From: a virus
Taxonomy: Duplodnaviria; Heunggongvirae; Uroviricota; Caudoviricetes
DNA: 4,489 nucleotides
Virus record (IMG/VR): IMGVR_UViG_2675903606_000011
Strand: one strand, 5' to 3'
Part shown: positions 1 to 4,364 of the stretch, piece by piece
How positions within the stretch are numbered: position 1 is the first letter of the stretch
Layout of the letters: each line of letters starts with the position of its first letter
The notes under the pieces: generated by a model
What the model saw: the letters and a program-made list of their open reading frames with translations, nothing else
The model's database searches: none
What the model was told of the DNA's origin: nothing
Program-made: the position numbers and the translations under genes

Positions 1-182
1 GTGGCCCGCCAGGTATCTGCATCCAGCTCTTCACCGGTATACTCTGCATCCGTCAGATAAACCGCGATCGCAGGAAAATCCTCTTCGTCAAAAACAACGG
101 GGCGACCATCAAACAGCGTCGCCCCGTGTTCATGCTGCTCGAGTGCATCCAGCACTGCCGCACGGATATCAGTATGTTTCAT
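1..182 (-). CDS. U: Tail tube terminator protein, lambda gpU homolog (5' part only; runs off the window start)
   Basis: My reverse-complement translation from the ATG at 182-180 gives MKHTDIRAAVLDALEQHEHGATLFDGRPVVFDEEDFPAIAVYLTDAEYTGEELDADTWRA..., open to position 1. This closely matches the lambda gpU N-terminus as I recall it (MKHTELRAAVLDALEKHDTGATFFDGRPAVFDEADFPAVAVYLTGAEYTGEELDSDTWQA). The ATG overlaps the Z stop (ATGA, TGA at 181-179). Not in the ORF track because it is truncated at about 60 codons. Confidence 0.85.
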   Translation of the reverse strand, partial: MKHTDIRAAVLDALEQHEHGATLFDGRPVVFDEEDFPAIAVYLTDAEYTGEELDADTWRA

Positions 183-769: not shown

Positions 770-1123
770 TTATCGTCGCCGGTTAACTGCGGGGGGTTGC
801 CCACGGTTGAGCCAGAGATAACAGCTTCCCCCGTCATCCGGAGAAACACGATCCACCCAGAACATCTCGCCGTTAATGGTCAGCGTGTCACCACGCCGCA
901 CGGCACGCACCGTATCCGTCCGCACAAATAATGACGGGCTGCTTCCTTCAATACGGACCCCGCCACCGGCAAAACCCAGCGACTCCGGATCGTCAAAAAC
1001 CCCCTGAACTTCGCCGCCACGTTGTGCTCCGGAGGTGAACTGCGCACGGATCCCCATCACTTCAACGATCGTACTGTCCACCCCGGCAAGGGCAGCATCA
1101 AAGGCATTCTGAAAATCACGCAT
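770..1123 (-). CDS. FII: Head-tail joining protein, lambda gpFII homolog (117 aa)
   Basis: ORF track 770..1123(-). MRDFQNAFDAA..., GVFDDPE, VRIEGSSPSLFVRTD, RRGDTLTI and C-terminus FWVDRVSPDDGGSCYLWLNRGQPPAVNRRR are near-identical to lambda gpFII as I recall it. Same length as lambda FII. ATG at 1123-1121 overlaps the FI stop (TGA 1118-1116) by 8 nt. Confidence 0.9.
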   Translation of the reverse strand: MRDFQNAFDAALAGVDSTIVEVMGIRAQFTSGAQRGGEVQGVFDDPESLGFAGGGVRIEGSSPSLFVRTDTVRAVRRGDTLTINGEMFWVDRVSPDDGGSCYLWLNRGQPPAVNRRR

Positions 1124-1499
1124 ATTCAGCCGTTCCGTGCTGTATCATAGCCGTTGCCAGTGATGATGGCACCAGAACACGCATACCCCGTAACGCCAGC
1201 TCAACGGGACGACCTGTCTCCGGGCAATACCCCATTACTTGCAGGCACTTCCGTACCCGGACGGCTTTAACATCATCCGGAGCATCCGTGTTGTTCAACT
1301 GCTCACCATCGTCTGTGTGATTTTGATCAGCCCCGCTCTCATCAGAGTGCATAATGCCCTCCGGGGAAACAGCAAGCTCCTCTTCCCACTCAGACACACG
1401 TTGAGCAATATCCGCAGCACTCCCCGACATATCCGCCTCGCGCCCCAGCAGGCCAGCCAGTTGACGAAGACGATTCAGATTTTCTTCTTTTGTTGCCAT
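1116..1499 (-). CDS. FI: DNA-packaging/head assembly accessory protein, lambda gpFI homolog (127 aa from the revised start)
   Basis: ORF track gives 1116..1547, but its first 16 codons start at a GTG inside a GC hairpin. The in-frame ATG at 1499-1497 (MATKEENLNRLRQLAGLL...) is preceded by AGGAGG (1510-1505) with a 5-nt spacer. The product has a lambda FI-like layout: helical N-terminus, acidic low-complexity linker (SDESGADQNHTDDGEQLNNTDAPDD), compact C-terminal domain; lambda FI is 132 aa. Identity to lambda is moderate; the call relies on synteny plus pattern. Confidence 0.8.
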   Translation of the reverse strand: MATKEENLNRLRQLAGLLGREADMSGSAADIAQRVSEWEEELAVSPEGIMHSDESGADQNHTDDGEQLNNTDAPDDVKAVRVRKCLQVMGYCPETGRPVELALRGMRVLVPSSLATAMIQHGTAEYA

Positions 1500-1513: not shown

Positions 1514-1543
1514 AAAAAAGACACGGGGGCATTTCGCCCCCGC
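1514..1543 (-). terminator. Intrinsic-terminator-like hairpin plus U-tract between E and FI
   Basis: Minus-strand RNA reads ...UAA UCCGUGAG CGGGGGC GAAAU GCCCCCG UGUC UUUUUU CACAGGAGG...; 7-8 bp G/C stem (plus 1525-1530 pairs with 1536-1541), 5-nt loop, then a U6 tract (plus-strand A6 at 1514-1519). It lies 8 nt after the E stop codon and just before the FI SD. Probably read through under Q antitermination; may act as a partial terminator or 3' stabiliser. Confidence 0.45.
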
Positions 1544-1550
1544 TCACGGA

Positions 1551-2579
1551 TTATTTCACCTGTACCACCACAAACTCATCAGGATCCGGCAGCACCATCA
1601 GCGGAGCGGACTGCGTCATGGTGAATTCACAGGACGGATCGCCCACGGTCAGCCAGTGTTTCGGGTAACGGGAAGAAGCCACCACTCCTTCAGACAACGC
1701 CTGTGCATCCTTAATGGCTCCATAGCAACGAATCCCCTCTGCCGCCGTATTCCCCAGCACCAGCATGCCCTCCGGCAGATAACGTTTTTCGGTACCGTCC
1801 TCTGCCACATAAGACGTTTTCGCCACCACAATGGCCAGATCGCCGTAATACCCCTTGAAGGACACCACTGCGCCCAGATCTTTCACTGCCGTTTCGAGTT
1901 GTGAATTTGAGCCGCGACGGGTATCCAGTTTTTCGCGGAACAGCTTAAAGCCATTCAGCAGACGCCAGACCGTACCGTCCATAATGGCGATATTCACAAG
2001 GCCGCTGGCCTGATCGCAGTAGAGGTCAATATCATGCGTCGGATCAAACGTATCACGGTCCTGCTCAGACCATTTTTTACCGTCAGCCTGCTCAATGTTA
2101 TTTCCTTCAGAGCGCCCGAAATCCACCTCAACCGTGTCAAACTGATCCCCTTCCATGGTGTATTTGCCATACAGCACGGCATTCACCGCCTGCATTTCTT
2201 CCACCTGGACAATGGCGTGCTCTTCCTGTTTGAGGTTATCGGTAATGATACGCAGACGACGGTAGGCCGGGTCGTTCAGCTGAGCCGGATCTTCACCAGG
2301 AAGGCGCTCAACCGCCTGCTGGTAATTAAATTCGTGTTTGGGCTTGACGTAGCCCGGACGTAACACGCGGGTTTCACCACCACGATGGCGCAGCACTTTT
2401 CCTTCAACGATCGGGGAGACATAGGCCGCCACCGGCGTTTTTCCGGTAATTTTGTCCAGCATCACCTCTTCGGTGTGGAAATTCACCGTACGGCGGAAAA
2501 ACAGCTCCAGAAACAGCGCACGGAATTTCACTTTTTGTTCGGTATAACCGAGTAACTGGCGGGTCGTAAACAATCCCAT
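1551..2579 (-). CDS. E: Major capsid protein, lambda gpE homolog (342 aa)
   Basis: ORF track 1551..2579(-). Long runs identical or near-identical to lambda gpE as I recall it: YVSPIV, PGYVKPKHE, DPAYRRLRII, VQVEEMQAVNAVLYGKYTM, KLDTRRGSNSQLETAVKDLG, MVLGNT, YPKHWLTVGDPSCEFTMTQSAPLMVLPDPDEFV. Lambda E is 341 aa. ATG at 2579-2577 is preceded by AAAGGAA; TAA stop at 1553-1551. Confidence 0.95.
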   Translation of the reverse strand: MGLFTTRQLLGYTEQKVKFRALFLELFFRRTVNFHTEEVMLDKITGKTPVAAYVSPIVEGKVLRHRGGETRVLRPGYVKPKHEFNYQQAVERLPGEDPAQLNDPAYRRLRIITDNLKQEEHAIVQVEEMQAVNAVLYGKYTMEGDQFDTVEVDFGRSEGNNIEQADGKKWSEQDRDTFDPTHDIDLYCDQASGLVNIAIMDGTVWRLLNGFKLFREKLDTRRGSNSQLETAVKDLGAVVSFKGYYGDLAIVVAKTSYVAEDGTEKRYLPEGMLVLGNTAAEGIRCYGAIKDAQALSEGVVASSRYPKHWLTVGDPSCEFTMTQSAPLMVLPDPDEFVVVQVK

Positions 2580-2597
2580 AAATCAGTTCCTTTCATT

Positions 2598-2629
2598 AAA
2601 AAATCAGTCAGGCCACCGCGGTGGCCTGA
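2598..2629 (-). terminator. Perfect 22-nt palindrome (hairpin) followed by a U-tract, between D and E
   Basis: Plus 2608-2629 tcaggccaccgcggtggcctga is its own reverse complement. On the minus-strand RNA it forms an 8-9 bp GC-rich stem with a tight CGCG loop, followed by CUGA and UUUUUU (plus-strand A6 at 2598-2603). It starts about 8 nt after the D stop and ends about 18 nt before the E ATG. Confidence 0.4.
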
Positions 2630-2636
2630 TAACGTG

Positions 2637-2984
2637 TTACGGCAGCGCCGCGTGACTCAGGGCACTGCCGGTAAAGGCGTTGGCCTTTTTGTGTTCATCC
2701 ACACTTTCAGGCCAGCGGATTGCCTCCGTCGCAAAGGTCCCCGACTTGTAATACGTCAGCACCGCCTCTGTGCCTTCAAGCGGCAGTACCAGTATGCCAA
2801 CCGCACTACCGGCTTTCTGTCCATCCCAGACAACCAGTTTCCCGCTGGCTTCATCCGGCATCAGGGGCGTCAGTGCCGGTGTTGCCTGAGAAATCCCGCT
2901 GCTGCCTGTGGCGGTATGAGCCGGATCATTACCGGCAAAAATACGTACTTCTGCACGTTGTTCAGTGATGGTTTTCGTTACCAT
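2637..2984 (-). CDS. D: Head decoration protein, lambda gpD homolog (115 aa)
   Basis: ORF track 2637..2984(-). Motifs NDPAHTAT, TPLM, KLVVWDG, AVGIL, YYKSGTF match lambda gpD from memory (SDPAHTAT...MTPLM...KLVAWDG...AVGIL...FYKSGTF). Lambda D is 110 aa. ATG at 2984-2982 with GAGG upstream; TAA stop at 2639-2637. Confidence 0.9.
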   Translation of the reverse strand: MVTKTITEQRAEVRIFAGNDPAHTATGSSGISQATPALTPLMPDEASGKLVVWDGQKAGSAVGILVLPLEGTEAVLTYYKSGTFATEAIRWPESVDEHKKANAFTGSALSHAALP

Positions 2985-3020
2985 ATTGTAAAAACCTCAT
3001 ATTGATGGTCAGCACTGACT

Positions 3021-3623
3021 TCATGGCATGGCCATGAGCATTTTCACGTCCGCATCACCGTCTGCTGACGTCTGTGACACGCCACCCCGCACCGCTGCCG
3101 GTGAATGATTCGCCATGAAATGTTCAAACAGGGCGGTTGTGGATGCAGAGACCGGTTCTGCTTTATCCGGCGATGAGGACAGAATGTCGCGGGCAGCCTC
3201 CACCGTCATTCCGGGAAACGCCGCCAGTTTTTCAGCCTGCGCCTCAGCCCCTTTTGCCTCATCCAGAGCCATAATCTGATCACGGAGTGAGGGTCCGGCA
3301 TCCGCCAGTGGTGCAGCCGCAAGGATCGGGCGGGCTTTTTCCACCGTCATCTCCGGCATCGCCGCCAGCGTTGCCGCCAGTTGTTCACGACCGTTCGCTT
3401 CTTCACACGCCATAATGCGATCGGCTTCACTCTGCGTGGATGCCACCGGCTGCTGTGGTGCTGCCGCGGTCAGAATCGCCCGGGCCTGTTCAACGCTCAT
3501 GCCCTGTTGTCCTGCCAGCATCGTGGCAAGGTGTTCACGTCCTTTCGCTTCCTGACACGTCAGGATCCCCATCACTCGCTGGTTCTCCTGCGCGGCAGCT
3601 TCCGTTGCAGTTAATTGCGGCAT
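3021..3623 (-). CDS. Nu3: Nested in-frame scaffolding protein, lambda Nu3-like (C-terminal 200 aa of C, from internal ATG)
   Basis: Internal ATG at 3623-3621 (Met248 of C) is preceded by a perfect AGGAGG (3633-3628, 4-nt spacer), which itself encodes Gly-Gly of C. The product MPQLTATEAAAQENQRVMGILTCQEAKG... (200 aa) shares the C stop. In lambda, Nu3 is encoded in the same frame within the 3' part of C (about 200 codons), so size and position match. Independent expression is inferred from the SD, not demonstrated. Confidence 0.6.
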   Translation of the reverse strand: MPQLTATEAAAQENQRVMGILTCQEAKGREHLATMLAGQQGMSVEQARAILTAAAPQQPVASTQSEADRIMACEEANGREQLAATLAAMPEMTVEKARPILAAAPLADAGPSLRDQIMALDEAKGAEAQAEKLAAFPGMTVEAARDILSSSPDKAEPVSASTTALFEHFMANHSPAAVRGGVSQTSADGDADVKMLMAMP

Positions 3624-4364
3624 AGTGCCTCCTGTATCATGTGTGTTCAGCGCCGCATCAATCCGCTGCTGCATGTCCTGGCGAATCTCTTCCGGCAACG
3701 CTTCAAACTGATTGCCATCCACCTTGTGCGCCCCTGAGTAAATCAGCGTGATATCCACACCGGCCTGCGCCAGATGACCGGCATAGCTGACATGGCTCAT
3801 CATCACGCCAATGGAGCCGATACGGGATGTCTGGGTAACCAGCCGTCGGGAGCAGGCCGACGCCAGCAGCATGGCTGCAGAACAGGCCGTGTCATTGCAC
3901 AGTGCCCAGACCGGCTTCTGCTGACGGAGGCGGTAAATCATGTCAGCACAGTCAAACGCACCGGCGGCCTGCCCGCCCGGACTGTCAATGTCCAGCAGTA
4001 CACCCCGCACCTGGCTATCCGCCATTGCCTGCTGAAGACAGGCGACAATGCCGTCATAGCCTGTCATTCCGGAAAATGGCCGCATACCCCCCAGCCGGTG
4101 CACCAGCGTGCCTGTCACCGGCAGTACAGCAATACCGTTCACCACCTGGTAAACACGGGCCGGTCGTTTACCTCCGGCCATGTACTCGTCCGTTTCAGCC
4201 AGCATTCCGGGTGCATCAAGCTGTACCTGCTGTTGTGGTACCGAAAGACTTGCTGCCCCCATCTCGCGCCCGAGCGCGCAAAAGAAAACCCGCGCATAGG
4301 CGGGCTCCAGAAGCAGCGGTTCATTGAATGCTGCGGCAATAATGTGTGAAAGATTACGTCTCAC
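3021..4364 (-). CDS. C: Prohead protease / minor capsid protein, lambda gpC homolog (S49/ClpP-like), 447 aa, apparent GTG start
   Basis: ORF track 3021..4364(-). The N-terminal two thirds match lambda gpC from memory: AFNEPLLLEPAYARVFFCAL, VVNGIAVLPVTGTLV, MTGYDGI, GVLLDIDSPGG, AGAFDCADMI, KPVWAL, SRRLVTQTSRIGSIGVMM, ITLIYSGAHKVDGN. The first codon is GTG (plus 4362-4364 = cac); there is no in-frame ATG upstream of the conserved AFNEPL motif, and an in-frame TAG lies 12 codons upstream. GAGGAG sits 10 nt upstream. Stop TGA at 3023-3021. Confidence 0.9.
   Translation of the reverse strand: MRRNLSHIIAAAFNEPLLLEPAYARVFFCALGREMGAASLSVPQQQVQLDAPGMLAETDEYMAGGKRPARVYQVVNGIAVLPVTGTLVHRLGGMRPFSGMTGYDGIVACLQQAMADSQVRGVLLDIDSPGGQAAGAFDCADMIYRLRQQKPVWALCNDTACSAAMLLASACSRRLVTQTSRIGSIGVMMSHVSYAGHLAQAGVDITLIYSGAHKVDGNQFEALPEEIRQDMQQRIDAALNTHDTGGTMPQLTATEAAAQENQRVMGILTCQEAKGREHLATMLAGQQGMSVEQARAILTAAAPQQPVASTQSEADRIMACEEANGREQLAATLAAMPEMTVEKARPILAAAPLADAGPSLRDQIMALDEAKGAEAQAEKLAAFPGMTVEAARDILSSSPDKAEPVSASTTALFEHFMANHSPAAVRGGVSQTSADGDADVKMLMAMP
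3168..3578 (-). repeat. Three tandem copies of a roughly 40-50 aa motif in the C/Nu3 C-terminal domain (coding repeat)
   Basis: C residues 263-303 RVMGILTCQEAKGREHLATMLAGQQGMSVEQARAILTAAAP; 316-352 RIMACEEANGREQLAATLAAMPEMTVEKARPILAAAP; 363-399 QIMALDEAKGAEAQAEKLAAFPGMTVEAARDILSSSP. Consensus IMxxxEAxGxExxAxxLAxxPxMTVExARxILxxxP, period about 47-53 aa. Seen directly in the translation. Confidence 0.75.
3628..3633 (-). promoter_or_regulatory. Internal Shine-Dalgarno (AGGAGG) for the nested Nu3-like start
   Basis: Minus-strand ...ACA GGA GGC ACT ATG CCG... read directly from the sequence. This is the strongest SD in the window and lies inside the C reading frame. Confidence 0.6.

What the first reader, a model, noticed from the sequence alone, without database searches (positions are those of the whole stretch)
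2598..2629. Perfect 22-nt palindrome plus U-tract between D and E; the capsid gene is bracketed by hairpins
tcaggccaccgcggtggcctga (2608-2629) is a perfect palindrome. On the late transcript it forms a GC-rich hairpin followed by CUGAUUUUUU, located after the D stop and about 18 nt before the E start. Together with the hairpin after E, the major capsid gene is flanked on both sides by stable stem-loops. Possible roles are RNase processing/stability boundaries, a partial terminator, or a protein-binding operator (a perfect palindrome is also what a dimeric DNA-binding protein would recognise). The palindrome contains a SacII site (CCGCGG), which is probably incidental.
Basis: seen in the sequence. 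Interest (0 to 1): 0.45.

Follow-up and report, generated by a model that had tools for sequence, protein, structure and literature searches.

The report
Terminator-like hairpin between phage capsid genes
A GC-rich RNA hairpin sits between the head-decoration gene and the major capsid gene of a phage-21-like prophage; lambda, N15 and many relatives carry a hairpin at the same spot, so it is real but an ordinary, already recognised kind of feature.

Summary
TCAGGCCACCGCGGTGGCCTGA (2608-2629) is a perfect 22-nt palindrome (expected by chance 0.001 per window). It lies on the late, minus-strand transcript, 7 nt after the D stop and 28 nt before the E start. A second hairpin follows E.

The window is a phage-21-type lambdoid head module (C/Nu3, D, E, FI, FII, Z). 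A GC hairpin fills the D-E spacer in 31 of 34 related loci compared:
- In lambda and N15 types it is a canonical intrinsic terminator (GCCGC-N4-GCGGC-T7) with covariation and sense-strand G·U pairs.
- The N15 record already annotates both the D-E and E-FI stem-loops as putative terminators.

Within the 21-type family the stem is constrained (π 0.027) compared with codon third positions (0.075-0.09), while the 4-nt centre varies freely (π 0.17). Perfect palindromy is therefore incidental.

The U6 run is private to this window. About 300 IMG/VR loci and 1,856 E. coli records carry CUGAUUUCUGAA or close variants instead.

Best reading: a terminator-type RNA hairpin that Q-modified polymerase reads through. 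It would act as a barrier to unmodified polymerase and as a 3' decay barrier for D mRNA. That function is inferred, not shown. An operator, an RNase III site and a dispersed repeat are not supported. Interest is low.

The parts
2608..2629 (-). Core hairpin: 9-bp stem (6 G-C), 4-nt loop CGCG; a perfect 22-nt palindrome
   Evidence: Chance expectation 0.0011. Pair probabilities about 1.0 in 82-422-nt contexts.
2603..2633 (-). Extended stem (GUUA...UGAU, one bulged C) that brings the helix end directly next to the U run
   Evidence: MFE structures (-17.9 kcal/mol).
2598..2603 (-). U6 run, an allele private to this window (relatives: UUUCUG, UUUCUU or UUUCAG)
   Evidence: It raises the recalled d'Aubenton-Carafa terminator score from about 0 (phage 21) to about +24.
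2580..2597 (-). E translation-initiation region (AAUGAAAGGAACUGAUUU, AAGGA Shine-Dalgarno-like motif at 2588-2592); the most conserved part of the spacer
   Evidence: A ribosome-binding site is annotated at the equivalent place in phage 21. π 0.012 for the whole 28-nt spacer segment 3' of the hairpin (2580-2607), which includes this region.
2637..2984 (-). Head decoration gene D (shp of phage 21)
   Evidence: Pfam HDPD, 4e-22; annotations.
1551..2579 (-). Major capsid gene E (gene 7 of phage 21)
   Evidence: Pfam Phage_cap_E, 2e-65.
1523..1543 (-). E-FI hairpin: the scan counts 9 pairs (7 G-C) with a 3-nt loop; RNAfold draws 8 pairs with a 5-nt loop
   Evidence: In the 21-type family stem π is 0.0066 against 0.09-0.10 at third codon positions. 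Both stem variants seen are G·U-compatible.
1514..1519 (-). U6 run after the E-FI hairpin, conserved in 95 of 97 loci
1116..1499 (-). DNA packaging gene FI, downstream of the second hairpin
   Evidence: Pfam Packaging_FI.

Best explanation
This is the phage-21-type version of the terminator-type RNA hairpin that lambda-like head modules carry between the decoration gene D and the major capsid gene E. It forms on the late (minus-strand) transcript.

Shown:
- The hairpin is there and folds stably.
- Its stem, but not its loop, is under constraint in the family.
- Most related head modules carry an equivalent hairpin at the same position.

Inferred:
- RNA polymerase modified by the phage Q antiterminator reads through the hairpin during lytic growth.
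- Unmodified polymerase, for example stray transcription in the lysogen, is stopped there. This should be more efficient in this allele because of its U6 run.
- Once in the mRNA, the hairpin blocks 3'-to-5' exonucleases. RNA ending after D (and, at the second hairpin, after E) would then be long-lived, which fits D and E being the two most abundant shell proteins.

The perfect palindromy is a by-product of a 9-bp stem closing a self-complementary 4-nt loop.
For: - Hairpin and position.
- Not chance.
- Breadth: 31 of 34 related D-E spacers hold a contiguous GC-rich hairpin of at least 7 bp, with at least five unrelated stem sequences (21, Gifsy-1, lambda/N15, Trabulsiella, Methylorubrum types). 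A further canonical example occurs in IMG/VR loci L282/L283.
- The D-hairpin-E arrangement reaches an alphaproteobacterial prophage whose E protein is 29% identical.
- Lambda/N15 type: 97% of cells paired, A-U to G-C double changes at 2 pairs (7 cells), and every departure in the G-C core is U·G on the sense strand. This points to RNA of the late strand rather than DNA.
- The N15 record annotates both stem-loops as putative rho-independent terminators.
- Within the 21-type family (183 loci, 99 haplotypes plus the window): π stem 0.027, loop 0.17, third codon positions 0.075-0.092. All variants still fold, at -8.6 to -16.8 kcal/mol.
- The E-FI hairpin is even more constrained.
- In the first 20 kb of phage 21 (nearly all late genes), the E-FI, D-E and J-stf sites rank highest among the terminator-like hits, all three on the sense strand.
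- Q-lambda works by preventing terminator hairpin formation at the RNA exit channel (abstract of PMC9388147).
- The stem persists in a family whose U-tract is degenerate, which argues for a role that needs only the hairpin.
Against: - No transcript 3' or 5' ends, half-lives or termination assays exist here. The function is inferred.
- In the 21-type family 15 of about 95 IMG/VR and genome loci compared carry one stem mismatch (C·A or A·C on the sense strand), and no compensatory change was seen in the stem.
- One locus has deleted the hairpin (L135).
- Several lineages lack a D-E hairpin altogether (PhAER-5, Providencia, L281, L284-L286), so it is dispensable.
- Stem and loop statistics rest on 18 and 4 sites.
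- In equilibrium folds of 622 nt or more, a long-range pairing with E codons 64-68 outcompetes the hairpin, although it is no better than shuffles.
- The abundant-protein argument does not explain the terminators after I (annotated in the phage 21 record) and after J.
Confidence: 0.55

Rival explanations
1. A leaky terminator used during lytic growth to set transcript dosage. A fraction of late transcription stops after D and after E, so downstream genes receive less mRNA.
For: Terminator-like anatomy. Weak terminators with read-through balance expression in other phages, as described for T7 and LUZ7 (PMC9163698). SPP1 has a predicted terminator directly after its major capsid gene. The E-FI hairpin keeps a U6 run in 95 of 97 loci.
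Against: A stop between D and E would lower E relative to the low-copy genes upstream (A, B, C), the opposite of what capsid stoichiometry needs. The D-E U-tract is degenerate in almost all 21-type relatives. Q-modified polymerase is built to ignore such signals.
Confidence: 0.12
2. A structural insulator for translation of E. The local hairpin locks up the GC-rich spacer so that the AU-rich E ribosome-binding region just downstream stays single-stranded and independent of D translation.
For: The hairpin always ends 15-33 nt before the E start in the enterobacterial and Aeromonadaceae loci compared. The spacer downstream of it is the best conserved part (π 0.012). In the lambda/N15 type, U7-ACGGGA directly joins the hairpin to the Shine-Dalgarno region and is nearly invariant.
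Against: Not tested. Some lineages couple D and E with no spacer at all. It does not explain the similar hairpin after E.
Confidence: 0.1
3. A relic with little present function in this family: a former terminator drifting under weak selection inside an antiterminated operon.
For: Degenerate U-tract in nearly all relatives. Stem mismatches are at appreciable frequency and no compensatory change was seen. One natural deletion. Loss in several lineages.
Against: Stem diversity is about one third of that at third codon positions, while the loop is unconstrained. Hairpins of unrelated sequence are maintained at the same spot in many lineages.
Confidence: 0.1
4. A DNA-level site: an operator for a dimeric DNA-binding protein, or a cruciform.
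For: It is a perfect palindrome. The CGCG and CATG alleles are both perfectly palindromic.
Against: Single copy in the phage 21 genome even with 3 mismatches allowed. Always in the same context, 120 of 120 matches. Many imperfect alleles exist. The central bases are the most variable. Related phages have unrelated sequences sharing only an RNA-type fold with sense-strand G·U pairs. It lies in the middle of an operon, with no more promoter-like sites than chance gives.
Confidence: 0.03
5. An RNase III processing site that cuts the late transcript between D and E.
For: A stable stem in an intercistronic spacer of a phage polycistronic mRNA.
Against: The helix is 9 bp, or 13 bp with a bulge. RNase III substrates need about two helical turns (established knowledge, not tested here).
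Confidence: 0.03

Closest known systems
Stem-loops annotated in phage N15 between genes 7 and 8 (D and E homologues) and after gene 8, as 'putative rho-indep. transcription terminator' (NC_001901)
   Same: Same two positions: after the decoration gene and after the major capsid gene. Same strand. GC hairpin followed by T-rich sequence.
   Different: Unrelated stem sequence. N15 has a short GCCGC stem with T7 directly attached, whereas here a 9-bp stem is followed by CUGA before the U run.
Lambda D-E and E-FI intergenic hairpins (J02459, about 6102-6123 and 7163-7180)
   Same: Same gene order and spacer length (55 nt against 57 nt). A hairpin in each of the two spacers flanking E. The stem is conserved across 20 lambda/N15-type lineages with covariation.
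   Different: The lambda version is a canonical intrinsic terminator (d-score about +31, against about 0 for phage 21 and +24 for this window). There is no sequence similarity.
Predicted terminator directly after the major capsid gene 13 of Bacillus phage SPP1, and leaky terminators that tune late-gene dosage in T7 and LUZ7
   Same: A terminator-type hairpin next to the most highly expressed structural gene, inside a long late transcription unit.
   Different: Those phages do not use Q-type antitermination. In T7 and LUZ7 the termination was measured; here nothing has been measured.
Intercistronic 3' stabiliser hairpins of bacterial operons, such as the REP sequences between malE and malF (recalled from established literature, not checked here)
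   Same: A stable hairpin after the more abundantly needed upstream cistron, proposed to block 3' exonucleases.
   Different: REPs are dispersed repeats. This palindrome is single-copy and specific to this locus.

Membership tests
Intrinsic (rho-independent) terminator | GC-rich stem of about 5-14 bp with a 3-8 nt loop on the transcribed strand | tested here: met
   9 bp, 6 G-C pairs, loop 4, -16.8 kcal/mol.
Intrinsic (rho-independent) terminator | A U-rich tract immediately 3' of the stem | tested here: inconclusive
   In this window CUGA separates the core stem from U6. With the extended stem, U5 follows directly (tail score 4.7, d about +24). In phage 21 and nearly all relatives the tail is UUCUGAA (d about 0). 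The score formula was recalled from memory.
Intrinsic (rho-independent) terminator | RNA 3' ends or termination observed at the site | not testable with these tools
   No transcript-end data for this locus were found in the held literature.
Lambdoid D-E intercistronic hairpin | Lies between an HDPD-family gene and a Phage_cap_E-family gene, on their strand | tested here: met
   Pfam assignments; position.
Lambdoid D-E intercistronic hairpin | The hairpin is maintained in related head modules | tested here: met
   31 of 34 loci. Covariation in the lambda/N15 type. Stem constrained and loop free in the 21 type.
Lambdoid D-E intercistronic hairpin | Sequence homology with the lambda/N15 element (GCCGC-N4-GCGGC-T7-ACGGGA) | tested here: not met
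   The stem and tail are unrelated. The resemblance is in position and fold only.
RNase III processing site | About 20 bp or more of double-stranded RNA | tested here: not met
   9 bp, or 13 bp with a bulge.
Dispersed palindromic repeat (REP/BIME-like) | Many copies at different loci | tested here: not met
   One copy per locus and the same D-E context in all 120 matches. One copy in phage 21 with up to 3 mismatches allowed.
Operator for a dimeric DNA-binding protein | Conserved symmetric half-sites, usually repeated and next to a promoter | tested here: not met
   Single copy. Asymmetric alleles are common. Promoter-like sites are no more frequent than chance. Protein binding itself is not testable here.
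Any curated Rfam family | A match at the gathering score | tested here: not met
   The three matches at E-value up to 10 lie elsewhere in the window and are far below gathering score.

The most novel reading that the evidence does not exclude
The hairpins after D and after E could be decay barriers that carve long-lived RNA species ending after each of the two stoichiometric shell-protein genes out of the 20+ kb late transcript. The D-hairpin-E arrangement, kept from Enterobacteriaceae to Alphaproteobacteria with unrelated stem sequences, would then be a conserved post-transcriptional dosage device of lambda-type capsid modules. In this reading the window's private U6 allele would newly add a terminator, or an Hfq-type 3' end, to it.
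Probability: 0.2. Interest if true: 0.45.

Novelty: new member of a known kind. Interest (0 to 1): 0.2.

Why it matters
It matters little for this locus on its own. It documents that phage 21-type head modules, present in 1,851 of 5,426 complete E. coli genomes, carry their own version of the hairpins that flank the lambda capsid gene. Neither phage 21 record fetched here annotates them.

The broader point is modest but testable. Terminator-type hairpins are kept inside an operon whose polymerase is built to ignore terminators, and the stem persists here even where the U-tract has decayed. That suggests a role after transcription, or a role in silencing stray transcription in lysogens. A few mutants and a Term-seq run on an induced lysogen would decide between these.

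Tried and rejected
- Rfam scan of the whole window at a permissive threshold: nothing at or near the site.
- Operator or dispersed repeat: the 22-mer is single-copy in phage 21, even with 3 mismatches allowed, and always sits in the D-E spacer.
- Long-range pairing: in folds of 622 nt or more the palindrome pairs with E codons 64-68 (window 2376-2391), 6.4 kcal/mol better than the local hairpin. The duplex is no better than codon-shuffled controls (12 of 60) and has no positional counterpart in lambda, N15, Gifsy-1 or others. It is treated as chance. One search timed out.
[quoted passage not shown] PasB maps antisense in the I-J spacer of prophage PP6, and its probe does not match the window. 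It is unrelated.
- Helper-embedded satellite att sites in capsid genes: no link to the hairpin.
- Promoter-like hexamers in the Nu3-D spacer (3012-2985): no more than chance, and the -10 element abuts the D start codon. D is therefore not a self-contained promoter-gene-terminator unit.
- A 40-nt search for the U6 allele in E. coli genomes found nothing. This may be an effect of the low-complexity filter, so the rarity claim rests.
- Strand test from wobble pairs within the 21-type D-E stem: mixed (U·G, C·A and A·C all occur), hence uninformative. The lambda/N15 set and the E-FI hairpin do favour the sense strand.
- Papers that might hold lambda late-transcript data (Liu et al. 2013; Casjens and Hendrix 2015; a third PMC id tried from memory) are not in the library.

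Full report
WHAT THE WINDOW IS

All long open reading frames lie on the minus strand. Pfam identifies them:
- an S49 protease/scaffold gene (C/Nu3, 3021-4364)
- head decoration protein D (HDPD, 2637-2984)
- major capsid protein E (1551-2579)
- FI (1116-1499)
- FII (770-1123)
- Z (179-754)

DNA searches place the window in the phage 21 type of lambdoid head module. It is 98% identical to phage PhiR12_2_star and 92% to phage 21 over 1.7 kb. Lambda itself matches only at protein level (E 61% identical).

THE OBSERVATION

The palindrome tcaggccaccgcggtggcctga is at 2608-2629 exactly as stated.
- It is the longest palindrome in the window. The expected number this long is 0.0011, and 1 of 2000 dinucleotide shuffles reached it.
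- On the late strand it starts 7 nt after the D stop. It is followed by CUGA, then UUUUUU (2603-2598), then 18 nt containing an AAGGA Shine-Dalgarno-like motif, then the E start.
- It folds as a 9-bp stem with a 4-nt loop (-16.8 kcal/mol). The stem can extend to 13 bp with one bulge, which puts the helix end directly against the U run.
- Pair probabilities are 0.9-1.0 in contexts of up to 422 nt.
- The terminator scan ranks this site and the E-FI hairpin (1543-1523, then GUCUUUUUUC) as the two best in the window, both on the late strand.

The observation, including 'E is bracketed by hairpins', is confirmed.

COMPARISON WITH RELATIVES: BROAD SCALE

I extracted the D-E spacer from annotated phages and from one genome per species, and read them.
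- 31 of 34 loci have a contiguous GC-rich hairpin of 7 bp or more in the spacer, ending 15-44 nt before the E start.
- The stems fall into at least five unrelated sequence types:
  - 21 type
  - Gifsy-1 (GAAGGCCGC GAA GCGGCCUUU)
  - lambda/N15 (GCCGC-N4-GCGGC-U7)
  - Trabulsiella guamensis
  - Methylorubrum (AGGGCGCC UCG GGCGCCCU)
- In the Methylorubrum prophage the flanking genes are confirmed HDPD and Phage_cap_E family members with E only 29% identical. The hairpin is kept across that clade while the spacer upstream changes.
- A further canonical example occurs in an AT-rich metagenomic lineage, L282/L283.
- The hairpin is not universal. Aeromonas phage PhAER-5, a Providencia prophage and several distant IMG/VR contigs have no spacer or no hairpin.

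In 20 lambda/N15-type lineages (alignment A2):
- 97% of cells pair.
- The two outer pairs switch between A-U, G·U and G-C, with 7 cells changed on both sides.
- Every departure in the G-C core is U·G on the late strand.
- Only 2 of 500 shuffles reach the observed covariation score.

This is what an RNA structure on the late transcript predicts. A DNA site would not predict it. The N15 record already annotates both the D-E and the E-FI stem-loops as putative rho-independent terminators. The E-FI spacer likewise holds a hairpin in phage 21, Gifsy-1, lambda, N15, 2H10 and PhAER-5, but not in phi80.

COMPARISON WITH RELATIVES: WITHIN THE 21-TYPE FAMILY

From 183 loci (99 haplotypes plus the window), nucleotide diversity is as follows:

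| Region | π |
|---|---|
| Stem (18 sites) | 0.027 |
| Loop (4 sites) | 0.17 |
| Spacer 3' of the hairpin | 0.012 |
| Third codon positions of D | 0.075 |
| Third codon positions of E | 0.092 |

The stem is constrained to about the level of first and second codon positions, while the centre is free. Alleles of the centre are CGCG, CAUG, CGCGU and UGCG. The perfect palindromy and the SacII site are therefore incidental to a stem closing a 4-nt loop.

The constraint is not absolute:
- Two alleles carry a single C·A or A·C mismatch (9 and 6 loci).
- One E. coli/Shigella allele has two wobbles and a mismatch.
- No compensatory change was seen in this stem.
- One contig has deleted the hairpin together with the last seven D codons.

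All point variants still fold at -8.6 to -16.8 kcal/mol.

The E-FI hairpin is much tighter. Stem π is 0.0066 against 0.09-0.10 at third positions. Both stem variants seen are G·U-compatible on the late strand, and the U6 run is kept in 95 of 97 loci.

THE U RUN

Phage 21 has the identical palindrome but the tail CUGAUUUCUGAA.
- None of about 95 IMG/VR and genome loci or 120 further exact-palindrome matches has U6.
- In 5,426 complete E. coli genomes the region occurs in 1,851 genomes (1,856 records). No listed full-length match exceeds 98% identity, which means the two tail differences are always present.
- With a terminator score recalled from d'Aubenton-Carafa et al. 1990, this window scores about +24, phage 21 about 0, lambda +31 and N15 +40. 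These are approximate because modern energy parameters were used.

In the family the conserved unit is the hairpin plus the E ribosome-binding region.

MECHANISM

Shown:
- a stable local hairpin on the late strand
- stem-specific constraint
- positional conservation with unrelated sequences
- sense-strand wobble pairs in the best-sampled type

Inferred: during lytic growth, Q-modified polymerase passes the site. Q-lambda is reported to narrow and extend the RNA exit channel so that terminator hairpins cannot form there (PMC9388147 abstract). The hairpin then forms behind the polymerase and stays in the mRNA.

I consider two roles most likely, and they are compatible:
- a stop for polymerase that has not been modified by Q (insulation of the capsid genes in the lysogen)
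- a 3' exonuclease barrier that makes RNA ending after D, and at the second hairpin after E, long-lived

Two points favour a role that needs only the hairpin:
- The stem persists in a family whose U-tract is degenerate.
- The AU-rich single-stranded stretch lies 3' of the hairpin. A cut there would leave the hairpin as the 3' end of the D-containing fragment.

A leaky terminator for dosage control is plausible after E. SPP1 has one directly after its capsid gene, and T7 and LUZ7 use weak terminators this way. It makes little sense between D and E, because D and E are needed in equal amounts and the genes upstream in far smaller amounts (established lambda capsid stoichiometry).

Other readings:
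- An RNase III site is unlikely for a 9-13 bp helix.
- An operator is unlikely. The site is single-copy, always in the same context, has asymmetric alleles and has unrelated sequences in relatives.
- A relic with weak function cannot be excluded for this family.

WHAT LED NOWHERE
- Rfam gave nothing at or near the site.
- A long-range pairing with E codons 64-68 wins the equilibrium fold in contexts of 622 nt or more. It is no better than codon shuffles and is not conserved.
- The EPEC sRNA PasB, described as embedded in a phage structural operon, lies antisense in the I-J spacer and is unrelated.
- No paper with transcript ends for lambda or phage 21 late genes could be read.

VERDICT

The feature is real and correctly located. 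It is a new, sequence-unrelated member of a known kind: the terminator-type hairpins that flank the major capsid gene in lambda-like head modules, annotated as such in N15. The perfect palindrome and the SacII site are incidental, and the U6 run is a private allele. Function is inferred only. Interest is low (0.2).

Noticed in passing
window 97-127 (minus strand, inside gene U): A 10-bp GC-rich stem (ACGGGGCGAC / GTCGCCCCGT, 11-nt loop) lies inside the coding sequence of tail gene U. On the sense strand it is followed by UUGUUUUUG. Pair probability is about 1.0. The same hairpin is present in lambda U, and in phage 21 U with one G·U pair. It was missed by the terminator scan because the loop exceeds 8 nt.
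   Followed up: partly
window 2617-2620 (centre of the palindrome); loci L009, L074 and others: The CGCG and CATG alleles are both perfect 22-nt palindromes, through a G-to-A plus C-to-T double change at the two central positions. These positions cannot pair with each other in a hairpin. Only one clade has it. It could be a single dinucleotide event or a template-switch correction of a quasi-palindrome. It remains unexplained.
   Followed up: partly
L135 (IMGVR_UViG_2634166457_000005), D-E junction: A natural deletion between GCCCTGA in D and GCCTGA at the end of the palindrome removes the last seven D codons and the whole hairpin. It creates a new D C-terminus (…GSALTDF*).
   Followed up: no
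L156 1-125 (IMGVR_UViG_2648501784_000004): There is a rearrangement breakpoint 6 nt 3' of the hairpin. In place of E there is unrelated DNA ending in a convergent terminator-like hairpin (CCCCCAGCCTAGCTGGGGG + TTTTCT).
   Followed up: partly
window 2336-2580; Aeromonas phage AP1 MT713136.1 250152-250396: A 254-kb Aeromonas phage record holds 245 nt that are 96% identical to the 5' end of E, beginning one base before the E start codon, near the end of the record. It is probably contamination or a chimeric assembly.
   Followed up: no
window 3162-3281, 3303-3422, 3456-3578 (minus strand, C/Nu3): The scaffold part of C/Nu3 contains three diverged repeats of about 40 residues (…IMAxxEAxGRExLAxxLAxxPxMTVExARxIL…). 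They correspond to the 'Tri boxes' annotated with unknown function in the phage 21 record M81255. The DNA-level repeat search barely detects them.
   Followed up: partly
window 2376-2391 with 2611-2625: E codons 64-68 (GCGCCAUCGUGGUGGU) can form a 15-bp duplex, with three G·U pairs, with the palindrome. This duplex wins the minimum-energy fold in contexts of 622 nt or more. It is no better than codon-shuffled controls and is not conserved in other lineages.
   Followed up: yes
L270 (E. coli E2348/69 NC_011601.1 1466261-1466343): The Hfq-bound sRNA PasB of EPEC lies antisense in the spacer between tail genes I and J of a lambdoid prophage. Phage 21 has an annotated terminator in its I-J spacer. 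This is another case of a functional RNA in a late-operon spacer.
   Followed up: partly
window 2985-3012 (minus strand, Nu3-D spacer): Promoter-like hexamers CTGACC-16-TACAAT lie directly before the D start codon, and are also present in phage 21. The number of such sites in the window is no more than chance, and the -10 element abuts the ATG.
   Followed up: partly
window 2570-2669: The 21-type D-E junction is present in 1,851 of 5,426 complete E. coli genomes, with up to 5 copies per genome and 8 places on plasmids.
   Followed up: no
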